A stretch of DNA of 64,000 nucleotides, taken from the sequence record PP328843.1, one strand, 5' to 3'. The stretch comes from Escherichia phage 215Ecol030PP. Position numbers and translations under genes: made by a program. Below are positions 2,126-43,130 of this stretch, in pieces. The first letter of the stretch is position 1. Every line of letters begins with the position of its first letter. The notes under the pieces were generated by a model, which had not been told where the DNA came from, made no database searches, and saw only the letters and a list, made by a program, of their open reading frames with translations.

Positions 2126-2656
<531 letters not shown>

Positions 2657-4315: not shown

Positions 4316-4898
4316 ATTCTCTACATTCCTTAACAAATTTTTCTAGTAATAAATCACTTTCAAAATTAGGATTTTCCACTAATTTATCAAAAAGATCATC
4401 AACAATATTCAAGATATTTCTTTTACTAAGAATACGTTTATTTTCATGCTTCGTTTCAGAATCAACTATAAGAGTAAAGAAATATTTCTTGCCCTGAAAT
4501 TTTACAGTAGTATCAATATAAAATAAATTTGACTTTTGTAAATTACGTTTAAACCATGCGTCACTTAAACTATAAACACCGAGATAATCAAAATCGTCGT
4601 TTAAATAACAAACCGTCCATTCAGGAGAAATGAAATCAGTAAATTCAACATCAAAATCACACGTCAATGAATGAATTGATTCAATACTGTTAATAAGTAT
4701 TCCAGGACGTATTAAAGACTTTTTACCTCTGGAAAATCTTCCAGAAAGACTTTCATCAGTTTCATATGAAGACCCCCAATAGTAATTACGTCCTTCTGCC
4801 ATGCGTTTAAGAGCATTTAGTAATTGGTCTGGAACATCAACCTGTCTTTGGAACTCTTCAAACATTGAATTGAAATCACTTTGCATTTTCATTTTCAT
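4284..4898 (-). CDS. hypothetical soluble protein (204 aa), shares C-terminal KFVKECRE motif
   Basis: ORF track. Confidence 0.5.
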   Translation of the reverse strand: MKMKMQSDFNSMFEEFQRQVDVPDQLLNALKRMAEGRNYYWGSSYETDESLSGRFSRGKKSLIRPGILINSIESIHSLTCDFDVEFTDFISPEWTVCYLNDDFDYLGVYSLSDAWFKRNLQKSNLFYIDTTVKFQGKKYFFTLIVDSETKHENKRILSKRNILNIVDDLFDKLVENPNFESDLLLEKFVKECREYVKTITIPSK

Positions 4899-6161: not shown

Positions 6162-6294
6162 CGTTTTGTGAAAAATTTTTTAAAAAGTTTTGGGGGAATT
6201 CTAGGGCAGGGAGGGGCAATTAAAGGATAGGATAATATATTATAAAGGATAGAAACTAAATGATGCCTAGAGAGGCCCGGAAAGGCCTAGATAC

Positions 6295-6322
6295 CAAAAA
6301 GCCCCAACCTTTTGGTCGGGGC
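6295..6322 (-). terminator. intrinsic terminator (GCCCC-stem hairpin plus U-run on minus strand) after gene 6331-6804
   Basis: hairpin GCCCCAACC...GGTCGGGGC followed by T5 on minus strand. Confidence 0.55.
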
Positions 6323-6330
6323 TAAGAATG

Positions 6331-6804
6331 TTATTTGATTTGTTTAGCAGACCAAATGCGGTCTTTAATAATTTTTTGGATGTCTTCAACATACTCAAGA
6401 GAGTGAACATGTGGATTATCTTTGAAACTATAAGCACGGGCTAACTTTTGGCCTTCGGTTTTGATTACTAAAAGCTCTTTAAGGATAGCTTCATATTTGG
6501 AGATAATTCCTTTAACAATATTTTTCTCTTGTGTGACTTTAGGATCTGCTTTAGGAGCAGGTTTACCTGAAGCCTTTGCAAAAGCAGCTCCAGTAGCAAC
6601 TAAACTTTTCCAAGCCATACTAACTGCATTCCCTGTAAATCCTTCGGCTTTCATATCACGAGCAAATTGGAATCGTGATTCATCGGAAGCATCTTTATAG
6701 GAATATTTACCCGCGGCAATGGCAGCTTTTGCAACAGCTTGAATTTCAGTGCTAGATGCTTCATTTAACACCGCTTCATTTAAAAATTGAGTATATGATT
6801 TCAT
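6331..6804 (-). CDS. internal-protein-like protein with capsid-targeting-sequence-like N-terminus MKSYTQFLNE (157 aa)
   Basis: ORF track 6331..6981 begins with TTG inside upstream tRNA-like element; ATG at 6804 has SD AGGAAA; late promoter TATAAATA upstream. Confidence 0.6.
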   Translation of the reverse strand: MKSYTQFLNEAVLNEASSTEIQAVAKAAIAAGKYSYKDASDESRFQFARDMKAEGFTGNAVSMAWKSLVATGAAFAKASGKPAPKADPKVTQEKNIVKGIISKYEAILKELLVIKTEGQKLARAYSFKDNPHVHSLEYVEDIQKIIKDRIWSAKQIK

Positions 6805-6842
6805 CTTATTTCCTGTTTTAATTCGGGGTTTTAATATACTAA

Positions 6843-6850
6843 TATTTATA
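6843..6850 (-). promoter_or_regulatory. late promoter TATAAATA upstream of IP-like gene 6331-6804
   Basis: exact motif on minus strand between terminator hairpin and SD. Confidence 0.5.
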
Positions 6851-6852
6851 CT

Positions 6853-6879
6853 AAAAAGCCCCAACCTTTCGGTCGGGGC
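6853..6879 (-). terminator. intrinsic terminator at 3' end of the tRNA/small-RNA transcription unit
   Basis: near-duplicate of the 6295-6322 hairpin, T-run on minus strand. Confidence 0.55.
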
Positions 6880-7196
6880 TAAGCCTTGCGGCAACCTTGT
6901 CGGGGTTCCACCTGCTAAGGCAAGTGTTTGTACGAAACGCCGGGATTCGAACCCGGTTATTAAGCAGTTGACGCTACTCAATATTTTTAAAAGGCCATAT
7001 CTCGACCATATCCGAACGTTCCGTCAAAAACGCTACTCGGCTTATGGCAAAGATATTTCCTCGAATCGATAATTCGGTGCGCCGTTTCTGCTGTGATATA
7101 AGGGGGCATTAACAAAACATAAAGATTTATTAATGCCAGTCCTTAAACAGGGAACATCAGTCCGACGACTTGCCGGTAGCGACCCGGCTTCTTGTC

Positions 7197-7272
7197 TGGT
7201 CGAGGCAGTAGGGATCGAACCTACGACCCAGGACTTAGAAGGTCCTTGCTCTTCCTTCTGAGCTATGCCCCG
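7197..7272 (-). tRNA. tRNA-Arg (anticodon TCT), CCA encoded
   Basis: hand-folded cloverleaf: 7-bp acceptor, D stem GCTC/GAGC, anticodon loop CTTCTAA, T-loop TTCGATC. Confidence 0.8.
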
Positions 7273-7276
7273 TAAT

Positions 7277-7352
7277 TGGGGTGACCGATGGGAGTCGAAC
7301 CCATGACTACGAGAATCACAATCTCGAGTTCTACCAACTGAACTACGGCCAC
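7277..7352 (-). tRNA. tRNA-His (anticodon GTG), CCA encoded
   Basis: hand-folded cloverleaf; anticodon loop TTGTGAT; T-arm ATGGG/CCCAT. Confidence 0.75.
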
Positions 7353-7443
7353 ATTAATACCTACTCCAACAATCAAGATGTCTTCACACGAAATTAAGAG
7401 AAGAGTGATCAGTTCAACCCCTATAATCGCGTCAAGTAGATAT

Positions 7444-7465
7444 TAATGTGACAGTTGTCACAAAT
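7444..7465. promoter_or_regulatory. perfect CRP-consensus-like palindrome TGTGA-N6-TCACA (TAATGTGACAGTTGTCACAAAT)
   Basis: both CRP half-sites and 6-bp spacing exact, A/T flanks; lies 3' of tRNA-Asn. Confidence 0.4.
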
Positions 7466-7466
7466 T

Positions 7467-7541
7467 TGGCGGACGTGATAGGATTCGAACCTATAACCAA
7501 TCGCTTAACAGGCGATCGCTCTGCCATTGAGCTACACATCC
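7467..7541 (-). tRNA. tRNA-Asn (anticodon GTT), CCA encoded
   Basis: hand-folded cloverleaf; anticodon stem ATCGC/GCGAT, loop CTGTTAA. Confidence 0.75.
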
Positions 7542-7545
7542 AAAT

Positions 7546-7632
7546 TGGTGGGGAGTGATGGAGTCGAACCACCCGAGTCGCAATGACAATGGATTTACAG
7601 TCCACACCGCTACCTCTACGGGATAACTCCCC
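7546..7632 (-). tRNA. tRNA-Tyr (anticodon GTA), type II with long variable arm, CCA encoded
   Basis: perfect 7-bp acceptor GGGGAGT/ACTCCCC; anticodon loop CTGTAAA. Confidence 0.75.
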
Positions 7633-7645
7633 TTAATTCTTAATT

Positions 7646-7720
7646 TGGTGGCCCTGGGTGGAATTGAACCACCATCTGGCGATTATGAGTCGCTTGCTTG
7701 AACCTTCCAGCTACAGGGCC
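7646..7720 (-). tRNA. tRNA with anticodon CAT (Met or lysidine-modified Ile, as T4 tRNA-Ile)
   Basis: perfect acceptor GGCCCTG/CAGGGCC, T-arm GGTGG/CCACC, anticodon loop CTCATAA. Confidence 0.75.
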
Positions 7721-7728
7721 AAATTTTC

Positions 7729-8214
7729 TTATTTTATGTAATATTTATTTAAAAACTTTCTAGCTTGAGTATGGCTAACATTTATAGCGTTTGCATAATT
7801 TTTAATAAAACCTCGTTCATCCATATTAAAATTTTCTAATATTTTTAATCGTCTAGTTATCTCATCTTGACTTAAGGTACTTGCATTATTTTTAGAAATT
7901 TTTTCTAAGGACTGTGCCGAGTGTTTTCGACCATTAAAATTAAAATTTTTAGATTTTGGAGGAAATCTAGCATTTAATCTCGCATCTTTTGTATTTTGAT
8001 TATTAGTTGCGCAATATATGTTATTTAATGAATATGGTCCTTTATCGCCGAAACGGCACATGCAGTATTCATGACCCTTTCTTCCACGCTTATCATAATT
8101 TCCCGTTGATTTCCACCAATGCAGCCATTCATCAAAAGTTAAATTCCATTCAATGTTTCTACGTATAGCAGAATTCCGCTGAGAAATATATTTTGCATAA
8201 TCTTCTTTCATCAC
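7729..8214 (-). CDS. putative HNH-family homing endonuclease embedded in the tRNA cluster (161 aa, GTG start)
   Basis: motif GHEYCMCRFGDKGPYSLNNIYCATNNQN resembles HNH core; basic C-terminal DNA-binding-like tail. Confidence 0.5.
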   Translation of the reverse strand: MMKEDYAKYISQRNSAIRRNIEWNLTFDEWLHWWKSTGNYDKRGRKGHEYCMCRFGDKGPYSLNNIYCATNNQNTKDARLNARFPPKSKNFNFNGRKHSAQSLEKISKNNASTLSQDEITRRLKILENFNMDERGFIKNYANAINVSHTQARKFLNKYYIK

Positions 8215-8258
8215 AAATTTCTCTACTTATTCAATACACTGAGCTAAATCAGCAAAAC

Positions 8259-8348
8259 TGGCGGAGGCGATAGGATTTGAACCTATGAGTCGCCGGAGCG
8301 ACTGCCGGTTTTCAAGACCGGTGCATTAAACCACTCTGCCACGCCTCC
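8259..8348 (-). tRNA. tRNA-Ser (anticodon TGA), type II, CCA encoded
   Basis: acceptor GGAGGCG/CGCCTCC; anticodon stem CCGGT/ACCGG, loop CTTGAAA; long variable arm. Confidence 0.8.
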
Positions 8349-8350
8349 AG

Positions 8351-8424
8351 TCTCCGCGGCAGGATTTGAACCTACGACATTCTGCTCCCAAAGCAGACGC
8401 TCTACCAAACTGAGCTACACGGAG
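8351..8424 (-). tRNA. tRNA-Pro (anticodon TGG), CCA not encoded; 2 nt from tRNA-Ser (dimeric precursor geometry)
   Basis: D stem GCTC/GAGC; anticodon stem TCTGC/GCAGA, loop TTTGGGA. Confidence 0.8.
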
Positions 8425-8434
8425 TAAATTAAAT

Positions 8435-8508
<74 letters not shown>

Positions 8509-8513
8509 AAATT

Positions 8514-8600
8514 TGGTGCGAGAAGTGGGACTCGAACCCACAAGGAAATCATTCCGCAGCATTTTAAGTGCTGTGCCTTTACCAATTTGGCCATTCTCGC
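8514..8600 (-). tRNA. tRNA-Leu (anticodon TAA), type II, CCA encoded
   Basis: acceptor GCGAGAA/TTCTCGC; anticodon stem CAGCA/TGCTG, loop CTTAAAA. Confidence 0.8.
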
Positions 8601-8601
8601 G

Positions 8602-8674
8602 CTGGGAATAAAGGACTCGAACCTTTGCATCCTGGAATCAAAATCCAGTGCCTTACCAACTTGGCTAATTCCCA
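8602..8674 (-). tRNA. tRNA-Gln (anticodon TTG), CCA not encoded; 1 nt from tRNA-Leu (dimeric precursor geometry)
   Basis: acceptor TGGGAAT/ATTCCCA; anticodon stem CTGGA/TCCAG, loop TTTTGAT. Confidence 0.8.
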
Positions 8675-9061: not shown

Positions 9062-9460
9062 TCAGCCTTCATCAACAATAGTGTGAGTATTAGCATTTAC
9101 GATTTGCCACCAATCAAAGCGATTAGAATCCATCGGTTTGTTTTCATTTTCTTTGATAATGTCACGGAGTTCATCTTCAGAGAATGCTTTAGCAATTAAA
9201 TCGGTATACCCACCACGGGGATAATAATTATCACCTGCAAACAAAAGGAAATTTACCTTCCCGGAAGCAACATATGCTTCCTTAGGATACTTGTTTCCTG
9301 CGTGGTCAACCACTTCAATATAACGGTAAGGAATATCGGTTCTTTCAACCCATTGCCATGCCGCCGCAGGGGAATCGAAAGCATCTACACCTAAACGATT
9401 ATCTTCATCTTTAGACGGATTATTTTCGTAATCCGCATATACATAATATTCAACGTTCAT
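9062..9460 (-). CDS. hypothetical protein (132 aa)
   Basis: ORF track. Confidence 0.5.
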   Translation of the reverse strand: MNVEYYVYADYENNPSKDEDNRLGVDAFDSPAAAWQWVERTDIPYRYIEVVDHAGNKYPKEAYVASGKVNFLLFAGDNYYPRGGYTDLIAKAFSEDELRDIIKENENKPMDSNRFDWWQIVNANTHTIVDEG

Positions 9461-9703: not shown

Positions 9704-9937
9704 TTATTTTTTACGAAAAATTGATTTATTTTCTGCTGCCCATTTTTCAATAACTGCAGCAGGACCAGTAACAACAATTTTATCACCGTAATCTTCTGCG
9801 GCGAGTTGACCGAAATTATCTAATGCATCACGAAGAACTCCATGAGGCATTTCACCCATTTTATCTTTCTTGCCAGTGTAAATAAACTCAACTTTTACAT
9901 CAGCAGTTTCAGCAATAAATTCTTGGTAAGTTTTCAT
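9704..9937 (-). CDS. internal protein with canonical capsid targeting sequence MKTYQEFIAE (77 aa)
   Basis: N-terminus identical to T4 IP-type CTS; own promoter element upstream. Confidence 0.7.
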   Translation of the reverse strand: MKTYQEFIAETADVKVEFIYTGKKDKMGEMPHGVLRDALDNFGQLAAEDYGDKIVVTGPAAVIEKWAAENKSIFRKK

Positions 9938-9971
9938 TTTGATTTCCATTTGGTTTTGTTTTGATAGGGTA

Positions 9972-10001
9972 ATAGTATCACAACTAAAACCCTATGTAAA
10001 C
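9972..10001 (-). promoter_or_regulatory. early-promoter-like element GTTTAC-N18-TACTAT, copy B
   Basis: repeated element with overlapping inverted repeat. Confidence 0.45.
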
Positions 10002-10013
10002 AACTTTGTGAAA

Positions 10014-10271
10014 TTATTTTAAATCTTCTAATCGTTTCTTCATCTTAGAGCCATTTTTAGCAATTTCTCCTGCATCGGAGCATAATGCTAAAAGTGCTTT
10101 AACTTTAGTTTGGTCTCCTTTAAAAGATGAAGGATCGACCGCAGCAGCAAGTTCTTTAATACGAGAGAAAAGACGCTCAGCTTCAGCTAAAGCCATTCCA
10201 AGCTTTACTTCCATACCGTGGGAAGATTCAGTGATAGTAGTTTTTGTAGCAAACTCTTTGAAAGTTTTCAT
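10014..10271 (-). CDS. internal-protein-like protein, CTS-like N-terminus MKTFKEFATKTTITE (85 aa)
   Basis: ORF track; SD AGGAAA; own promoter element upstream. Confidence 0.6.
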   Translation of the reverse strand: MKTFKEFATKTTITESSHGMEVKLGMALAEAERLFSRIKELAAAVDPSSFKGDQTKVKALLALCSDAGEIAKNGSKMKKRLEDLK

Positions 10272-10302
10272 TTTTATTTTCCTAATTAATTTTGATGAGG
10301 TA

Positions 10303-10332
10303 ATAGTATCACTACCTCATCAGTATGTAAAC
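10303..10332 (-). promoter_or_regulatory. early-promoter-like element GTTTAC-N18-TACTAT, copy A
   Basis: repeated element with overlapping inverted repeat GATGAGGTA/TACCTCATC. Confidence 0.45.
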
Positions 10333-10344
10333 AACTTTGTGAAA

Positions 10345-11029
<685 letters not shown>

Positions 11030-39643: not shown

Positions 39644-40068
39644 TGCTTCTGATCCCTGAAACTCATGAATTAGTTCTCGAGAATGTCGAAGCACTTATTC
39701 CTGAAGCACAGGGTCGCTTTGACGAATTGTCTTCTGCTTTAAATAAAGACGATATAAATACAATTGTCGAGAATATGCTTGATGATGAAACTGATTTAGC
39801 GGTTGCATTAGCTTCTATTAATGAAAATATGCCGTTAAATGAATTTATCGTTAAACATGTTTCTGCCCGTGGTGAAATTACTCGCACTAAAGATCGCAAA
39901 ACCCGCGAACGTAATGCATTTCAAACTACCGGGTTGTCTAAAGCAAAACGTAGACAAATTGCTCGTAAAGCTACCAAAACGAAGATTGCCAATCCAGCAG
40001 GTCAATCTCGTGCTCAGCGTAAGCGTAAAAAAGCTCTTAAACGCCGTAAAGCATTAGGATTAAGCTAA
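39643..40068 (+). CDS. 68: prohead core protein gp68
   Basis: length/synteny. Confidence 0.9.
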
Positions 40069-40706
40069 TGAATGAACCCCAATTACTAATTGAAACTTGG
40101 GGTCAACCTGGCGAAATTATTGATGGCGTACCAATGCTTGAATCTCATGATGGAAAAGACTTAGGTTTAAAACCGGGTTTATACATCGAAGGAATATTCA
40201 TGCAAGCGGAAGTCGTCAATAGAAATAAACGTCTTTATCCAAAACGTATATTAGAAAAAGCGGTAAAAGACTATATTAATGAGCAAGTTTTAACTAAACA
40301 AGCTCTCGGAGAATTAAATCATCCTCCACGCGCTAATGTTGACCCGATGCAAGCCGCTATCATTATAGAAGATATGTGGTGGAAAGGAAATGACGTATAC
40401 GGACGAGCTCGTGTTATTGAAGGTGACCATGGTCCTGGAGATAAATTAGCAGCTAATATTCGTGCCGGATGGATTCCAGGAGTTTCTTCTCGTGGATTAG
40501 GTTCATTGACTGACACAAATAAAGGTTATCGTATCGTAAACGAAGGATTCAAATTAACTGTAGGTGTTGATGCAGTATGGGGTCCAAGTGCTCCAGATGC
40601 ATGGGTAACTCCTAAGGAAATTACCGAATCACAGACGGCGGAAGCCGATACAAGTGCCGATGACGCCTATATGGCTCTCGCAGAGGCCATGAAAAAAGCG
40701 TTATAA
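40068..40706 (+). CDS. 21: prohead core protease gp21 (212 aa)
   Basis: length/synteny. Confidence 0.93.
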   Translation: MNEPQLLIETWGQPGEIIDGVPMLESHDGKDLGLKPGLYIEGIFMQAEVVNRNKRLYPKRILEKAVKDYINEQVLTKQALGELNHPPRANVDPMQAAIIIEDMWWKGNDVYGRARVIEGDHGPGDKLAANIRAGWIPGVSSRGLGSLTDTNKGYRIVNEGFKLTVGVDAVWGPSAPDAWVTPKEITESQTAEADTSADDAYMALAEAMKKAL

Positions 40707-40736: not shown

Positions 40737-41546
40737 ATGCTTAAAGAACAACTGATTGCCGAAGCGCAGAAAATTGATGCTTCCGTTGCTCTTGATAGTA
40801 TTTTCGAATCAGTTAATATTTCTCCGGAAGCAAAAGAAACTTTCGGCACTGTATTCGAAGCTACCGTCAAGCAGCACGCCGTTAAATTAGCTGAATCTCA
40901 TATCGCTAAAATTGCTGAAAAAGCAGAAGAAGAAGTAGAAAAAAATAAAGAAGAAGCAGAAGAAAAAGCTGAGAAGAAAATCGCTGAGCAAGCTTCTAAA
41001 TTCCTTGACCATCTTGCAAAAGAATGGCTCACTGAAAATAAATTAGCAGTAGATAAAGGTATCAAAGCCGAACTGTTTGAATCCATGCTTGGTGGATTGA
41101 AAGAGCTCTTTGTTGAACACAACGTTGTTGTTCCAGAAGAATCAGTTGATGTTGTAGCTGAAATGGAAGAAGAGCTGCAAGAACATAAAGAAGAATCAGC
41201 TCGTCTGTTCGAAGAACTCAATAAGCGTGACGCATATATCAATTATGTGCAGCGTGAAGTGGCATTGAGCGAAAGTACTAAAGATCTGACTGAGTCTCAA
41301 AAAGAAAAAGTCTCTGCTCTGGTCGAAGGTATGGATTATTCAGATGCATTCTCAAGTAAATTGAGTGCAATCGTAGAAATGGTGAAGAAATCTAATAAAG
41401 ATGAAAGCACTATTACTGAGAGTATAAATACTCCTGATACTGAAGCAGCCGGACTGAATTTCGTCACTGAAGCTGTAGAAGATAAAGCTGCACCTGGTGC
41501 AGAAGATATTGTAAGTGTATATGCGAAAGTCGCATCTCGTTTCTAA
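40737..41546 (+). CDS. 22: prohead core scaffold gp22 (269 aa)
   Basis: acidic coiled-coil; length/synteny. Confidence 0.93.
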   Translation: MLKEQLIAEAQKIDASVALDSIFESVNISPEAKETFGTVFEATVKQHAVKLAESHIAKIAEKAEEEVEKNKEEAEEKAEKKIAEQASKFLDHLAKEWLTENKLAVDKGIKAELFESMLGGLKELFVEHNVVVPEESVDVVAEMEEELQEHKEESARLFEELNKRDAYINYVQREVALSESTKDLTESQKEKVSALVEGMDYSDAFSSKLSAIVEMVKKSNKDESTITESINTPDTEAAGLNFVTEAVEDKAAPGAEDIVSVYAKVASRF

Positions 41547-41564: not shown

Positions 41565-43130
41565 ATGACTATCAAAACTAAAGCTGAACTTTTGAACAAA
41601 TGGAAGCCATTACTGGAAGGTGAAGGTTTACCGGAAATTGCTAATAGCAAACAAGCGATTATCGCTAAAATCTTTGAAAACCAGGAAAAAGATTTCCAGA
41701 CAGCTCCGGAATATAAAGACGAAAAAATTGCTCAGGCATTCGGTTCTTTCTTAACAGAAGCTGAAATCGGTGGTGACCACGGTTACAATGCTACCAACAT
41801 CGCTGCAGGTCAGACTTCTGGCGCAGTAACTCAGATTGGCCCAGCTGTTATGGGTATGGTACGTCGTGCTATTCCTAACCTGATTGCTTTCGATATTTGC
41901 GGTGTTCAGCCGATGAACAACCCGACTGGCCAGGTATTCGCAATGCGCGCAGTATATGGTAAAGACCCAATTGCTTCCGGTGCTAAAGAAGCATTCCACC
42001 CAATGTATGGTCCAGATGCAATGTTCTCTGGTCAGGGTGCTGCTAAGAAATTCCCAGCTCTGGCTGCTAGCACACAAACCACAGCAGGTGATATCTATAC
42101 TCACTTCTTCCAGGACACTGGTACTGTGTATCTGCAAGCTTCTGCTCAAGTAACAATTAGTGCAAGCGCAACTGATGCAGATAAATTAGATGCTGAAATT
42201 AAGAAACAAATGGAAGCTGGTGCACTGGTAGAAATCGCTGAAGGTATGGCTACTTCTATCGCTGAACTTCAGGAAGGTTTTAACGGTTCTACCGATAACC
42301 CATGGAATGAAATGGGCTTCCGTATCGATAAACAAGTTATCGAAGCTAAATCTCGTCAGCTGAAAGCTGCTTACTCTATTGAATTAGCACAAGACCTTCG
42401 CGCTGTTCACGGTATGGATGCTGATGCTGAACTGTCTGGTATTCTGGCTACCGAAATCATGCTGGAAATCAACCGCGAAGTTGTTGATTGGATTAACTAC
42501 TCCGCACAGGTTGGTAAATCTGGTATGACCCTGACTCCGGGTTCTAAAGCTGGTGTATTTGACTTCCAGGACCCAATCGATATTCGTGGTGCTCGCTGGG
42601 CAGGTGAATCCTTTAAAGCTCTGTTGTTCCAGATTGACAAAGAAGCAGTTGAAATTGCTCGTCAGACCGGTCGTGGTGAAGGTAACTTCATTATCGCTTC
42701 CCGTAACGTAGTTAACGTTCTGGCTTCAGTTGATACTGGCATTTCTTATGCTGCACAGGGTCTGGCTACCGGCTTTAACACTGATACTACCAAGTCAGTA
42801 TTTGCTGGTGTTCTGGGTGGTAAATACCGTGTATATATCGACCAGTATGCTAAACAGGATTATTTCACTGTAGGTTATAAAGGTCCGAACGAAATGGATG
42901 CTGGTATTTACTATGCTCCATATGTAGCTCTGACTCCGCTGCGTGGTTCCGATCCGAAGAACTTCCAACCGGTAATGGGATTCAAAACTCGTTACGGTAT
43001 CGGTATCAACCCATTTGCAGAATCCGCTGCTCAGGCTCCGGCTTCTCGCATCCAGAGCGGTATGCCTTCTATTCTGAATAGCCTTGGTAAAAACGCTTAC
43101 TTTAGACGTGTATATGTTAAAGGTATCTAA
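41565..43130 (+). CDS. 23: major capsid protein gp23 (521 aa)
   Basis: length as T4 gp23; terminator hairpin downstream. Confidence 0.97.
   Translation: MTIKTKAELLNKWKPLLEGEGLPEIANSKQAIIAKIFENQEKDFQTAPEYKDEKIAQAFGSFLTEAEIGGDHGYNATNIAAGQTSGAVTQIGPAVMGMVRRAIPNLIAFDICGVQPMNNPTGQVFAMRAVYGKDPIASGAKEAFHPMYGPDAMFSGQGAAKKFPALAASTQTTAGDIYTHFFQDTGTVYLQASAQVTISASATDADKLDAEIKKQMEAGALVEIAEGMATSIAELQEGFNGSTDNPWNEMGFRIDKQVIEAKSRQLKAAYSIELAQDLRAVHGMDADAELSGILATEIMLEINREVVDWINYSAQVGKSGMTLTPGSKAGVFDFQDPIDIRGARWAGESFKALLFQIDKEAVEIARQTGRGEGNFIIASRNVVNVLASVDTGISYAAQGLATGFNTDTTKSVFAGVLGGKYRVYIDQYAKQDYFTVGYKGPNEMDAGIYYAPYVALTPLRGSDPKNFQPVMGFKTRYGIGINPFAESAAQAPASRIQSGMPSILNSLGKNAYFRRVYVKGI

What the first reader, a model, noticed from the sequence alone, without database searches (positions are those of the whole stretch)
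6331..6886. Additional internal-protein-like gene with late promoter next to the tRNA cluster
The 157-aa product starts MKSYTQFLNEA, a close variant of the capsid targeting sequence, and is preceded by terminator hairpin, TATAAATA and SD in the order expected for a late, virion-packaged protein. In T4 the other internal protein genes (ipII, ipIII) sit between denV and e, where this phage has none. The rest of the protein (Ala/Lys-rich) resembles nothing I can name.
Basis: partly seen in the sequence, partly recalled or inferred. Interest (0 to 1): 0.45.

Follow-up and report, generated by a model that had tools for sequence, protein, structure and literature searches.

The report
Unannotated T4-type internal head protein gene
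A small late gene beside the tRNA cluster of this T4-like phage carries the short N-terminal tag that T4 uses to load proteins into its head, so it is very probably one more "internal protein" injected with the DNA, from a widespread family that databases still label hypothetical.

Summary
On the minus strand there is a 157-aa ORF (ATG 6804, stop 6331-6333). It is preceded, in order, by the rnaC terminator hairpin, a perfect TATAAATA late promoter and a Shine-Dalgarno sequence.

The leader MKSYTQFLNE↓A keeps all four positions that mutagenesis of the T4 IPIII capsid targeting sequence found to matter: Y4 and F7 for targeting, L8 and E10 for gp21 cleavage. It also resembles this phage's own gp23 cleavage site, FLTE↓A. 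gp21, gp22 and gp23 are all encoded in the window.

The gene is a clean 557-bp cassette that T4 lacks, bounded by a duplicated terminator. It is under strong purifying selection (dN/dS 0.02-0.18) and occurs in 511 phage records, and every annotation I saw calls it hypothetical (PHROG 2280, unknown function). A 155/157-identical ortholog (fD1 g140) was detected in purified virions by LC-MS/MS, but that proteome is not specific.

The mature protein is basic, with a three-helix N-domain, a Lys/Pro-rich linker and a helical hairpin. It has no significant sequence or fold relative.

Verdict: a new, unannotated member of the known class of T-even internal proteins, at a third locus with its own late promoter. 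Packaging, cleavage and post-injection function (probably anti-defence) are inferred, not shown.

The parts
6331..6804 (-). CDS, 157 aa plus stop: candidate internal head protein (RB32ORF132c/133c family, PHROG 2280)
   Evidence: ORF and translation. dN/dS 0.02-0.18 against orthologs. 511 phage records hold it. phrog_2280 E 2e-60.
6775..6804 (-). Codons 1-10, MKSYTQFLNE: capsid-targeting-sequence-like leader ending in the gp21-type site L-N-E|A
   Evidence: Alignment with T4 IPI/II/III leaders. Key positions 4, 7, 8 and 10 as defined in PMC9026906. The motif is absent from 200 shuffles.
6754..6783 (-). Two 15-nt tandem units (ttaaatgaagcggtg / ttaaatgaagcatct) that duplicate the LNE|A cleavage site (residues 8-10 and 13-15)
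   Evidence: Read from the sequence. Relatives JK45, RB27, P0004 and P0005 lack the extra residues.
6589..6759 (-). Residues 16-72: three-helix N-domain with the invariant AGKYSY...ESRF.F..D..AEGF motif; the conserved core of the family
6544..6588 (-). Residues 73-87: Ala/Lys/Pro-rich basic linker, predicted disordered
   Evidence: pLDDT drops to 58 in block 81-90 of the full-length model. Composition: residues 73-92 have pI 10.0.
6334..6543 (-). Residues 88-157: C-terminal antiparallel helical hairpin, the most conserved part within Tequatrovirus
   Evidence: Helices 88-124 and 131-154. dN/dS 0.03-0.08. Only generic coiled-coil hits.
6809..6814 (-). Shine-Dalgarno AGGAAA, 4 nt before the ATG
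   Evidence: Sequence. AGGAA is conserved in RB27, JK45 and KpV477.
6843..6850 (-). T4 late-promoter consensus TATAAATA, 38 nt upstream of the ATG
   Evidence: Conserved in RB27, KpV477, Aplg8, fD1 and IMG/VR contigs; degenerate (AATAAATA) in JK45.
6852..6880 (-). Intrinsic terminator of the tRNA/rnaD/rnaC unit (10-bp stem, GAAA loop, T5); upstream copy of the repeat
   Evidence: Homologous to the single T4 terminator after rnaC.
6295..6323 (-). Second copy of the same terminator (AAAA loop, T5), starting 7 nt after the stop codon
   Evidence: dG -19.7 kcal/mol, z -4.4.
6295..6851 (-). 557-bp cassette (late promoter, gene, terminator) that is absent from T4; its boundaries fall inside the 36-nt direct repeat 6291-6326 / 6848-6883
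   Evidence: Pairwise alignment with T4 shows one clean gap between flanks that otherwise align closely. Repeat family D1.
40068..40706 (+). gp21 prohead protease, the trans-acting enzyme expected to remove the leader
   Evidence: Pfam Peptidase_S77, E 1.5e-111. gp22 scaffold lies at 40737-41546. gp23 at 41565-43130 carries the site FLTE|AEIGGDHGYNATNIA.

Best explanation
The gene encodes a T-even 'internal protein' (IP). It is made only late, from its own TATAAATA promoter; the rnaC terminator shields it from the early/middle tRNA transcript. Its first 10 residues act as a capsid targeting sequence that binds the gp22 scaffolding core, so the protein is built into the prohead. The prohead protease gp21 then cuts after E10 and/or E15 (L-N-E|A, present twice). 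This releases a basic 15.5-16 kDa protein (pI about 9.5) that stays with the packaged DNA and is injected with it into the next host.

Once injected it most likely acts at once on an immediate host threat. By analogy with Ip1, Ip2 and Ip3, which each inhibit a different GmrSD-type type IV restriction enzyme, it could be an anti-restriction or anti-defence factor, perhaps acting as a dimer on DNA.

Shown here: the gene, its selection, the cassette structure, and the leader, site and promoter motifs with their conservation. Inferred: late transcription, packaging, cleavage and injection (about 0.7-0.75). The anti-defence role is an analogy only (about 0.4).
For: - Leader: MKSYTQFLNE keeps Y4, F7, L8 and E10, the positions found critical for targeting (4, 7) and processing (8, 10) of the IPIII CTS (PMC9026906; alignment).
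- Leader conservation: the same pattern holds in all diverged relatives (MKTYNEFLNE, MKSYAEFLTE, MLKFNEFLAE, MLEYSEFLKE, MKFKEFLAE).
- Motif specificity: 3 hits in the window, all at ORF starts, against 0 in 200 shuffles. The other two hits belong to PHROGs annotated 'internal virion/head protein'.
- Cleavage context: FLNE|A is close to gp23's FLTE|A in the same phage, and gp21 and gp22 are present.
- Expression signals: terminator, TATAAATA and SD are conserved upstream in RB27, fD1, Aplg8, KpV477 and IMG/VR contigs.
- Real gene: dN/dS is 0.02-0.18.
- Accessory, cassette-like gene: absent from T4 as a clean 557-bp indel, and present in 511 phage records, against 901 that match the surrounding 1.6 kb.
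- Protein properties: basic and small, pI 9.5.
- Virion evidence: ortholog fD1 g140 (155/157 identical) is listed as identified by LC-MS/MS in purified virions.
- Same site, different cargo: in an IMG/VR contig the slot after rnaC, with terminator and TATAAATA, holds a very divergent relative with the leader MYTVNEFLAE|TEIITE|A.
- Precedent for function: Ip1-3 each block a distinct GmrSD (PMC12373910).
Against: - No direct evidence of packaging, cleavage or injection for this family.
- The fD1 proteome called 113 of 277 gene products particle-associated, including DenV, lysozyme e, NudE, e.5 and e.6, so detection there is weak evidence.
- Leader positions 3, 5, 6 and 9 differ from the IPIII CTS and their tolerance is untested.
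- The gene lies in neither of the two canonical IP loci.
- Its flanks are a terminator plus late promoter, not the early-promoter/stem-loop blocks that flank ipI, ipII, ipIII and IpIV.
- Strong purifying selection, especially on the C-domain, is less typical of arms-race proteins.
- There is no similarity to any known anti-defence protein, and nothing ties it to GmrSD.
Confidence: 0.72

Rival explanations
1. The protein is packaged as proposed, but its main role is inside the head: a basic DNA-associated or core-associated protein that helps head morphogenesis or DNA condensation, as was proposed for IPIII. It would have no specific anti-defence target after injection.
For: - Strong purifying selection and wide distribution.
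- IPIII mutants show head-assembly aberrations (PMC9026906).
Against: - The gene is dispensable: T4 and many other relatives lack it.
- All three T4 IPs now have anti-restriction targets.
Confidence: 0.15
2. It is a late, non-virion protein. The CTS-like N-terminus would be a relic, carried along because IP-type leaders and their flanks are recombination substrates, and the protein would act in the cytoplasm late in infection.
For: - The locus and flanks differ from canonical IP cassettes.
- Chimeric relatives exist in which the N- or C-part is joined to other sequences (P0010, P0015), which shows recombination inside the gene.
- The MS evidence is non-specific.
Against: - The leader is under purifying selection (dN/dS about 0.23-0.25).
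- Its four functionally critical positions are kept in relatives whose synonymous sites are saturated, and in other genera.
- A 10-residue CTS suffices to load foreign proteins into T4 heads, so a late protein carrying it would be packaged unless something blocks it.
Confidence: 0.1
3. It is not a functional gene: a chance ORF or a decaying remnant next to the tRNA cluster.
For: - Several database alleles are truncated by +1/-1 changes in the A-run after the linker (P0006, P0008, P0011).
- All annotations seen are 'hypothetical'.
Against: - dN/dS is 0.02-0.18 with dS up to about 2.
- 467 of 511 records keep at least 80% of the length.
- The N-domain fold is predicted with high confidence, pLDDT 94.6.
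- Peptides were detected by MS in fD1.
Confidence: 0.01

Closest known systems
T4 internal proteins IPI, IPII, IPIII (and the IpIV-type proteins of RB32-like phages)
   Same: - N-terminal 10-residue leader of the MKTYQEFIAE type, ending in an L/I-x-E gp21 site followed by Ala.
- Small, basic and non-essential, with variable presence among T-even phages.
- Body unrelated to the other IPs, which is the rule within this class.
   Different: - Located between rnaC and e.8, not in the denV-e or 57B-trna.4 loci.
- Has a dedicated TATAAATA late promoter right after a terminator, instead of the early-promoter/stem-loop block.
- Leader differs at positions 3, 5, 6 and 9 and carries a duplicated cleavage site.
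- Not annotated as an IP in any source I saw: PHROG 2280 is 'unknown function', whereas the other IP families are annotated.
- No experimental packaging or target data.
IP-gene cassettes of Repoila et al. 1994 and the PeSL promoter/stem-loop cassettes (Arbiol et al. 2010, PMC2839356)
   Same: A single small accessory ORF bounded by short conserved regulatory repeats. Its presence or absence between close relatives looks like recombination between those repeats: a clean 557-bp indel between two copies of a 36-nt repeat.
   Different: The repeat here is a rho-independent terminator with a late promoter abutting it, not an early promoter with a stem-loop. I could not read Repoila 1994 or Comeau 2007, so I cannot say whether this ORF is among their IP variants.
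gp23 / gp24 propeptide cleavage sites of T4-type heads
   Same: The sequence around the predicted cut, FLNE|A, is nearly the same as gp23's FLTE|A in this phage and fits the L/I-x-E rule.
   Different: gp23 and gp24 are shell proteins with longer or unrelated propeptides. Here the site ends a short core-targeting leader.
Winged-helix / RecX-repeat three-helix modules

Membership tests
T-even internal proteins (CTS-bearing, gp21-processed, injected) | N-terminal capsid targeting sequence with aromatic at position 4 and Phe at position 7 | tested here: met
   MKSYTQFLNE has Y4 and F7. These are kept in all relatives. Criteria taken from PMC9026906.
T-even internal proteins (CTS-bearing, gp21-processed, injected) | gp21 processing motif L/I-x-E at the end of the leader (positions 8 and 10) | tested here: met
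   L8-N-E10|A, and again L13-N-E15|A. It resembles gp23's FLTE|A in this phage. Actual cleavage was not testable.
T-even internal proteins (CTS-bearing, gp21-processed, injected) | The phage encodes the T4-type prohead core and protease (gp22, gp21) | tested here: met
   Peptidase_S77 at 40068-40706 and T4_CASP at 40737-41546.
T-even internal proteins (CTS-bearing, gp21-processed, injected) | Synthesis at the time of prohead assembly (late expression) | tested here: met
   Sequence level only. A perfect TATAAATA lies 38 nt upstream, just after a terminator, and is conserved in relatives. No transcript data.
T-even internal proteins (CTS-bearing, gp21-processed, injected) | Physical presence in the mature head | tested here: inconclusive
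   fD1 g140 (155/157 identical) is listed as LC-MS/MS particle-associated. The same table lists DenV, e, NudE, e.5 and e.6.
T-even internal proteins (CTS-bearing, gp21-processed, injected) | Injection into the host with the DNA | not testable with these tools
   Needs labelled-phage or MS experiments.
T-even internal proteins (CTS-bearing, gp21-processed, injected) | Small, basic, non-essential protein with variable presence among relatives | tested here: met
   Mature form 15.5-16 kDa, pI 9.5. Absent from T4. Found in 511 records, against 901 that share the region.
T-even internal proteins (CTS-bearing, gp21-processed, injected) | Location in one of the two classical polymorphic IP loci (denV-e; 57B-trna.4) | tested here: not met
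   It lies between rnaC and e.8. This is a historical description of where IPs were found rather than a mechanistic requirement.
Repoila-type / PeSL-like IP cassettes | Flanking conserved early-promoter plus stem-loop blocks | tested here: not met
   The flanks are a duplicated intrinsic terminator plus a late promoter. The window's two ipI-locus genes do have the early-promoter blocks.
GmrSD (type IV restriction) inhibitors such as Ip1/Ip2/Ip3 | Relieves restriction of glucosyl-hmC phage DNA by a specific GmrSD variant | not testable with these tools
   There is only the precedent in PMC12373910. No sequence or fold similarity to IPI, IPII or IPIII.
Winged-helix / HTH DNA-binding domains | Significant structural match including the recognition helix and wing | tested here: inconclusive

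The most novel reading that the evidence does not exclude
The slot after the rnaC terminator may be a third, previously unrecognised internal-protein locus of Tevenvirinae. It would hold a diversifying family of injected proteins built as leader, three-helix domain, Lys/Pro linker and dimerising hairpin. These would be expressed strictly late from a terminator-abutting promoter and exchanged by recombination between terminator copies. The protein would be an injected DNA-binding factor or defence inhibitor with a target different from the GmrSD enzymes hit by Ip1-3. The recurrent A-run frameshift alleles could give a natural N-domain-only form, as in the Klebsiella phages.
Probability: 0.2. 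Interest if true: 0.55.

Novelty: new member of a known kind. Interest (0 to 1): 0.4.

Why it matters
T4's three internal proteins were recently shown each to switch off a different GmrSD-type restriction enzyme. Each further leader-bearing protein is therefore a ready-made candidate for an injected anti-defence factor and a possible host-range determinant.

This family is found in more than 500 sequenced T4-like phages, many of them therapy or biocontrol candidates, and every annotation I saw calls it hypothetical. Flagging it as a likely packaged and injected protein gives a cheap, direct experiment: virion MS for the processed N-terminus, and a deletion mutant plated on wild E. coli panels.

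It also shows that IP genes are not confined to the two classical loci, nor to early-promoter cassettes.

Tried and rejected
- Family and sequence searches found nothing beyond the phage family itself: Pfam, NCBIfam and PADLOC, a PDB profile search, and Foldseek against PDB and BFVD with the full-length model (only generic helical hairpins or the protein's own orthologs).
- The exhaustive HMMER search gave weak hits to giant repeat proteins (P0016-P0019). I rejected them as spurious: they rest on a short repeated 'AAGSYSYKA'-like motif summed over 4-5 repeats inside Ig/cadherin-type repeats.
- BLASTP against IPIII and IpIV found no similarity in the body.
- The longer 216-aa reading from TTG 6981 was rejected because it would run through rnaC, the terminator and the promoter.
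- Repoila 1994 and Comeau 2007 could not be read, so I could not check whether this ORF is already among the '>30 IP variants' mentioned in PMC2839356.
- The fPS-2/65/90 paper has no virion proteome. Literature searches for RB32ORF132c and for other Tequatrovirus proteomes found nothing usable.
- Pfam gave nothing for the ORF inside the tRNA cluster.

Full report
**1. What is there**

The window is a Tequatrovirus genome segment. The 1.6 kb around the finding is 97% identical to Escherichia phage AV122 and Shigella phage JK38, and matches 901 phage records. The finding lies on the minus strand.

- The ORF runs from ATG 6804-6802 to the stop at 6333-6331 and encodes 157 aa, starting MKSYTQFLNEAVLNEASS.
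- Reading 5'->3' on the minus strand, the 3' end of the rnaC homologue is followed by a 10-bp GC-rich hairpin (6880-6857) and T5 (dG -20.3 kcal/mol).
- Then come TATAAATA (6850-6843), AGGAAA (6814-6809) and the ATG.
- The tRNA cluster (10 tRNAs, 7197-8674) and the rnaD/rnaC homologues lie immediately upstream.
- denV (1650-2066) and e (2126-2620) are adjacent with a 59-bp gap, so there is no ipII/ipIII gene at the T4 position.

**2. More than chance**

- The motif MK[ST][YF]x[EQ]F occurs three times in the six-frame translation of the 64 kb, always at the start of an ORF (6804, 9937, 10271), and never in 200 shuffles.
- The other two ORFs belong to PHROGs annotated as internal virion/head protein (phrog_8111, phrog_3499). 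The gene in question belongs to phrog_2280, 'unknown function'.
- It is a real gene. Pairwise dN/dS against orthologs in fD1, Aplg8, RB27 and JK45 is 0.02-0.18 with dS up to about 2. The C-terminal domain is the most constrained (0.03-0.08) and the leader the least, though still under purifying selection (0.23-0.25).

**3. Cassette structure**

- The terminator occurs twice: 6852-6880 upstream and 6295-6323 just after the stop codon. Together they form a 36-nt direct repeat with a spacing of 557 nt.
- T4 has a single terminator copy between rnaC and e.8 and no gene. The alignment shows one clean 557-bp gap between flanks that otherwise align closely.
- The unit 'late promoter, ORF, terminator' is thus an indel, consistent with recombination between terminator copies.
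- tblastn finds the protein in 511 phage records (467 nearly full length). These are mainly Escherichia, Shigella, Yersinia, Salmonella and Citrobacter Tequatroviruses, plus shorter versions in Klebsiella Jiaodaviruses.
- In every locus inspected it sits directly downstream of the tRNA/rnaC region.

**4. The leader as a capsid targeting sequence**

According to the review PMC9026906, the first 10 residues of IPIII (MKTYQEFIAE) suffice for incorporation into the head. Targeting depends mainly on residues 4 and 7 and processing on residues 8 and 10. gp21 cuts after L/I-x-E.

- The leader here has Y4, F7, L8 and E10, followed by Ala.
- These positions are kept in all relatives, including distant ones from other genera: MKTYNEFLNE, MKSYAEFLTE, MKTYAQFLMTE, MLKFNEFLAE, MLEYSEFLKE, MKFKEFLAE.
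- The window encodes gp21 (Peptidase_S77, 40068-40706), gp22 and gp23. The well-known gp23 maturation site reads FLTE|AEIGGDHGYNATNIA in this phage, almost the same context as FLNE|A.
- A 15-nt tandem duplication (6783-6769 / 6768-6754) creates a second LNE|A at residues 13-15. Relatives without it have a single site.

**5. Regulation differs from the classical ip genes**

- The upstream regions of T4 ipI, ipII and ipIII, of Aplg8 IpIV, and of the two ipI-locus genes of this window carry early-promoter-like GTTTAC...TA(N)TAT blocks with a palindrome, and no TATAAATA within 90 nt.
- The present family instead has terminator plus TATAAATA in the window, Aplg8, fD1, RB27, KpV477 and several IMG/VR contigs. 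In JK45 the promoter is one mismatch off.
- Expression is therefore predicted to be strictly late and insulated from the tRNA transcript. This is inferred from sequence only.

**6. Experimental hint**

- Yersinia phage fD1 g140 is 155/157 identical to the window protein.
[quoted passage not shown] It is also marked as having no T4 counterpart.
- The study lists 113 of 277 gene products as particle-associated, and its table marks DenV, lysozyme e, NudE, e.5 and e.6 as such. The detection therefore shows expression and co-purification, not specific encapsidation.

**7. The protein body**

- The mature form would be 142-147 aa, 15.5-16 kDa, pI 9.5.
- AlphaFold predicts a disordered leader, a three-helix N-domain (residues 18-71), a Lys/Pro/Ala-rich linker and a long antiparallel helical hairpin (88-154). 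Modelled alone, the N-domain reaches pLDDT 94.6.
- No sequence family or solved structure matches. Foldseek finds only the protein's own orthologs or generic hairpins.
- The N-domain is the conserved core of the wider family. The Klebsiella phage version is N-domain plus linker only (78 aa), and P0015 joins it to an unrelated C-terminus.

**8. The same slot holds divergent relatives**

- A scan of IMG/VR for the terminator/late-promoter junction recovered, besides orthologs, a contig (L012). There the same position after rnaC carries a protein with the leader MYTVNEFLAE|TEIITE|A, a different N-domain, a longer Lys/Pro linker and a C-terminal part in another frame after an A9 run.
- Profile comparison with the family gives 76% probability, E 2e-5, collinear over 117 columns. 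It is probably a distant homologue.
- This supports the view that the site is a genuine, diversifying IP-type locus.

**9. Interpretation and comparison with the known**

The best explanation is that this is one more member of the known class of T-even internal proteins: leader-targeted to the scaffolding core, trimmed by gp21, retained with the DNA and injected.

What it does afterwards is unknown. The strongest precedent is that Ip1, Ip2 and Ip3 each inhibit a distinct GmrSD-type type IV restriction enzyme (PMC12373910), so an anti-defence role is the default guess. A DNA-associated structural role is the main alternative.

It differs from the classical IPs in four ways:
- its locus is neither of the two IP loci;
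- it has a dedicated late promoter and terminator-repeat flanks;
- it has a duplicated cleavage site;
- it carries no functional annotation in any source I saw.

The class is long known, with more than 30 variants according to PMC2839356. I could not check whether this ORF was already listed there. I therefore rate it as a new, at least unannotated, member of a known kind, of moderate interest.

Noticed in passing
window 6754-6783 (minus strand): A 15-nt tandem duplication inside the leader (ttaaatgaagcggtg / ttaaatgaagcatct) gives two consecutive L-N-E|A gp21-type sites. Relatives such as JK45 and RB27 have only one.
   Followed up: partly
window about 6520-6528 (A-run in caagagaaaaatatt); proteins P0006, P0008, P0011, P0024, P0038, P0040: Several database alleles of this gene are truncated just after the Lys/Pro linker by +1 or -1 changes in this short A-run, leaving an N-domain-only protein of 93-111 aa. 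The Klebsiella phage KpV477 version is naturally N-domain-only (78 aa), and the divergent relative in L012 is split at an A9 run at the equivalent place. This could be homopolymer sequencing error, decay, or a real two-isoform arrangement.
   Followed up: partly
window 9707-9937 and 10017-10271 (minus strand), with upstream blocks about 9945-10015 and 10275-10345: The ipI locus holds two CTS-bearing ORFs: MKTYQEFIAE, 77 aa, phrog_8111; and MKTFKEFATKTTITE, 85 aa, phrog_3499. Each is preceded by the same early-promoter/stem-loop block of about 50 nt (atttcacaaagttgtttacat...gtgatactattacc), a PeSL-like cassette arrangement.
   Followed up: partly
L012 12437-13058 (IMGVR_UViG_3300030021_000002): The same genomic slot (after the rnaC terminator and TATAAATA) carries a very divergent leader-bearing protein (MYTVNEFLAETEIITEAG...) with an extended Lys/Pro-rich linker. 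hhalign against the family gives 76% probability, E 2e-5.
   Followed up: partly
L008 (IMGVR_UViG_3300009151_000033, 151-kb contig), minus strand near 4860: In a more distant phage, a terminator abutting TATAAATA precedes a 226-aa His-rich ORF starting MLTFKEHFELDLLLEE. This is another possible leader-bearing late protein.
   Followed up: no
window 7729-8214 (minus strand): A 161-aa ORF sits inside the tRNA cluster between tRNA-Met and tRNA-Ser, roughly where T4 has the homing endonuclease segB. It has no Pfam match, so its identity is unresolved.
   Followed up: partly
proteins P0010 and P0015 (from metagenomic/Logan contigs): These are chimeric relatives. P0010 joins a trna.3-like N-terminus (similar to window ORF 9062-9460) to the last 31 residues of this protein. 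P0015 joins the leader and N-domain to an unrelated C-terminus. Both are evidence of recombination within the gene.
   Followed up: no
window 2634-2654 (minus strand): Two TATAAATA late-promoter matches lie 13 nt apart just upstream of the lysozyme gene e. In T4 such promoters could also read through into ipIII and ipII, which lack their own TATAAATA within 90 nt.
   Followed up: no
PMC8309999 Table S3 (phage fD1, locus L006): The fD1 'particle-associated' proteome includes clearly non-structural proteins (DenV, lysozyme e, NudE, e.5, e.6, rIIA-like). Its calls for hypothetical proteins, g140 included, should not be read as proof of encapsidation.
   Followed up: yes
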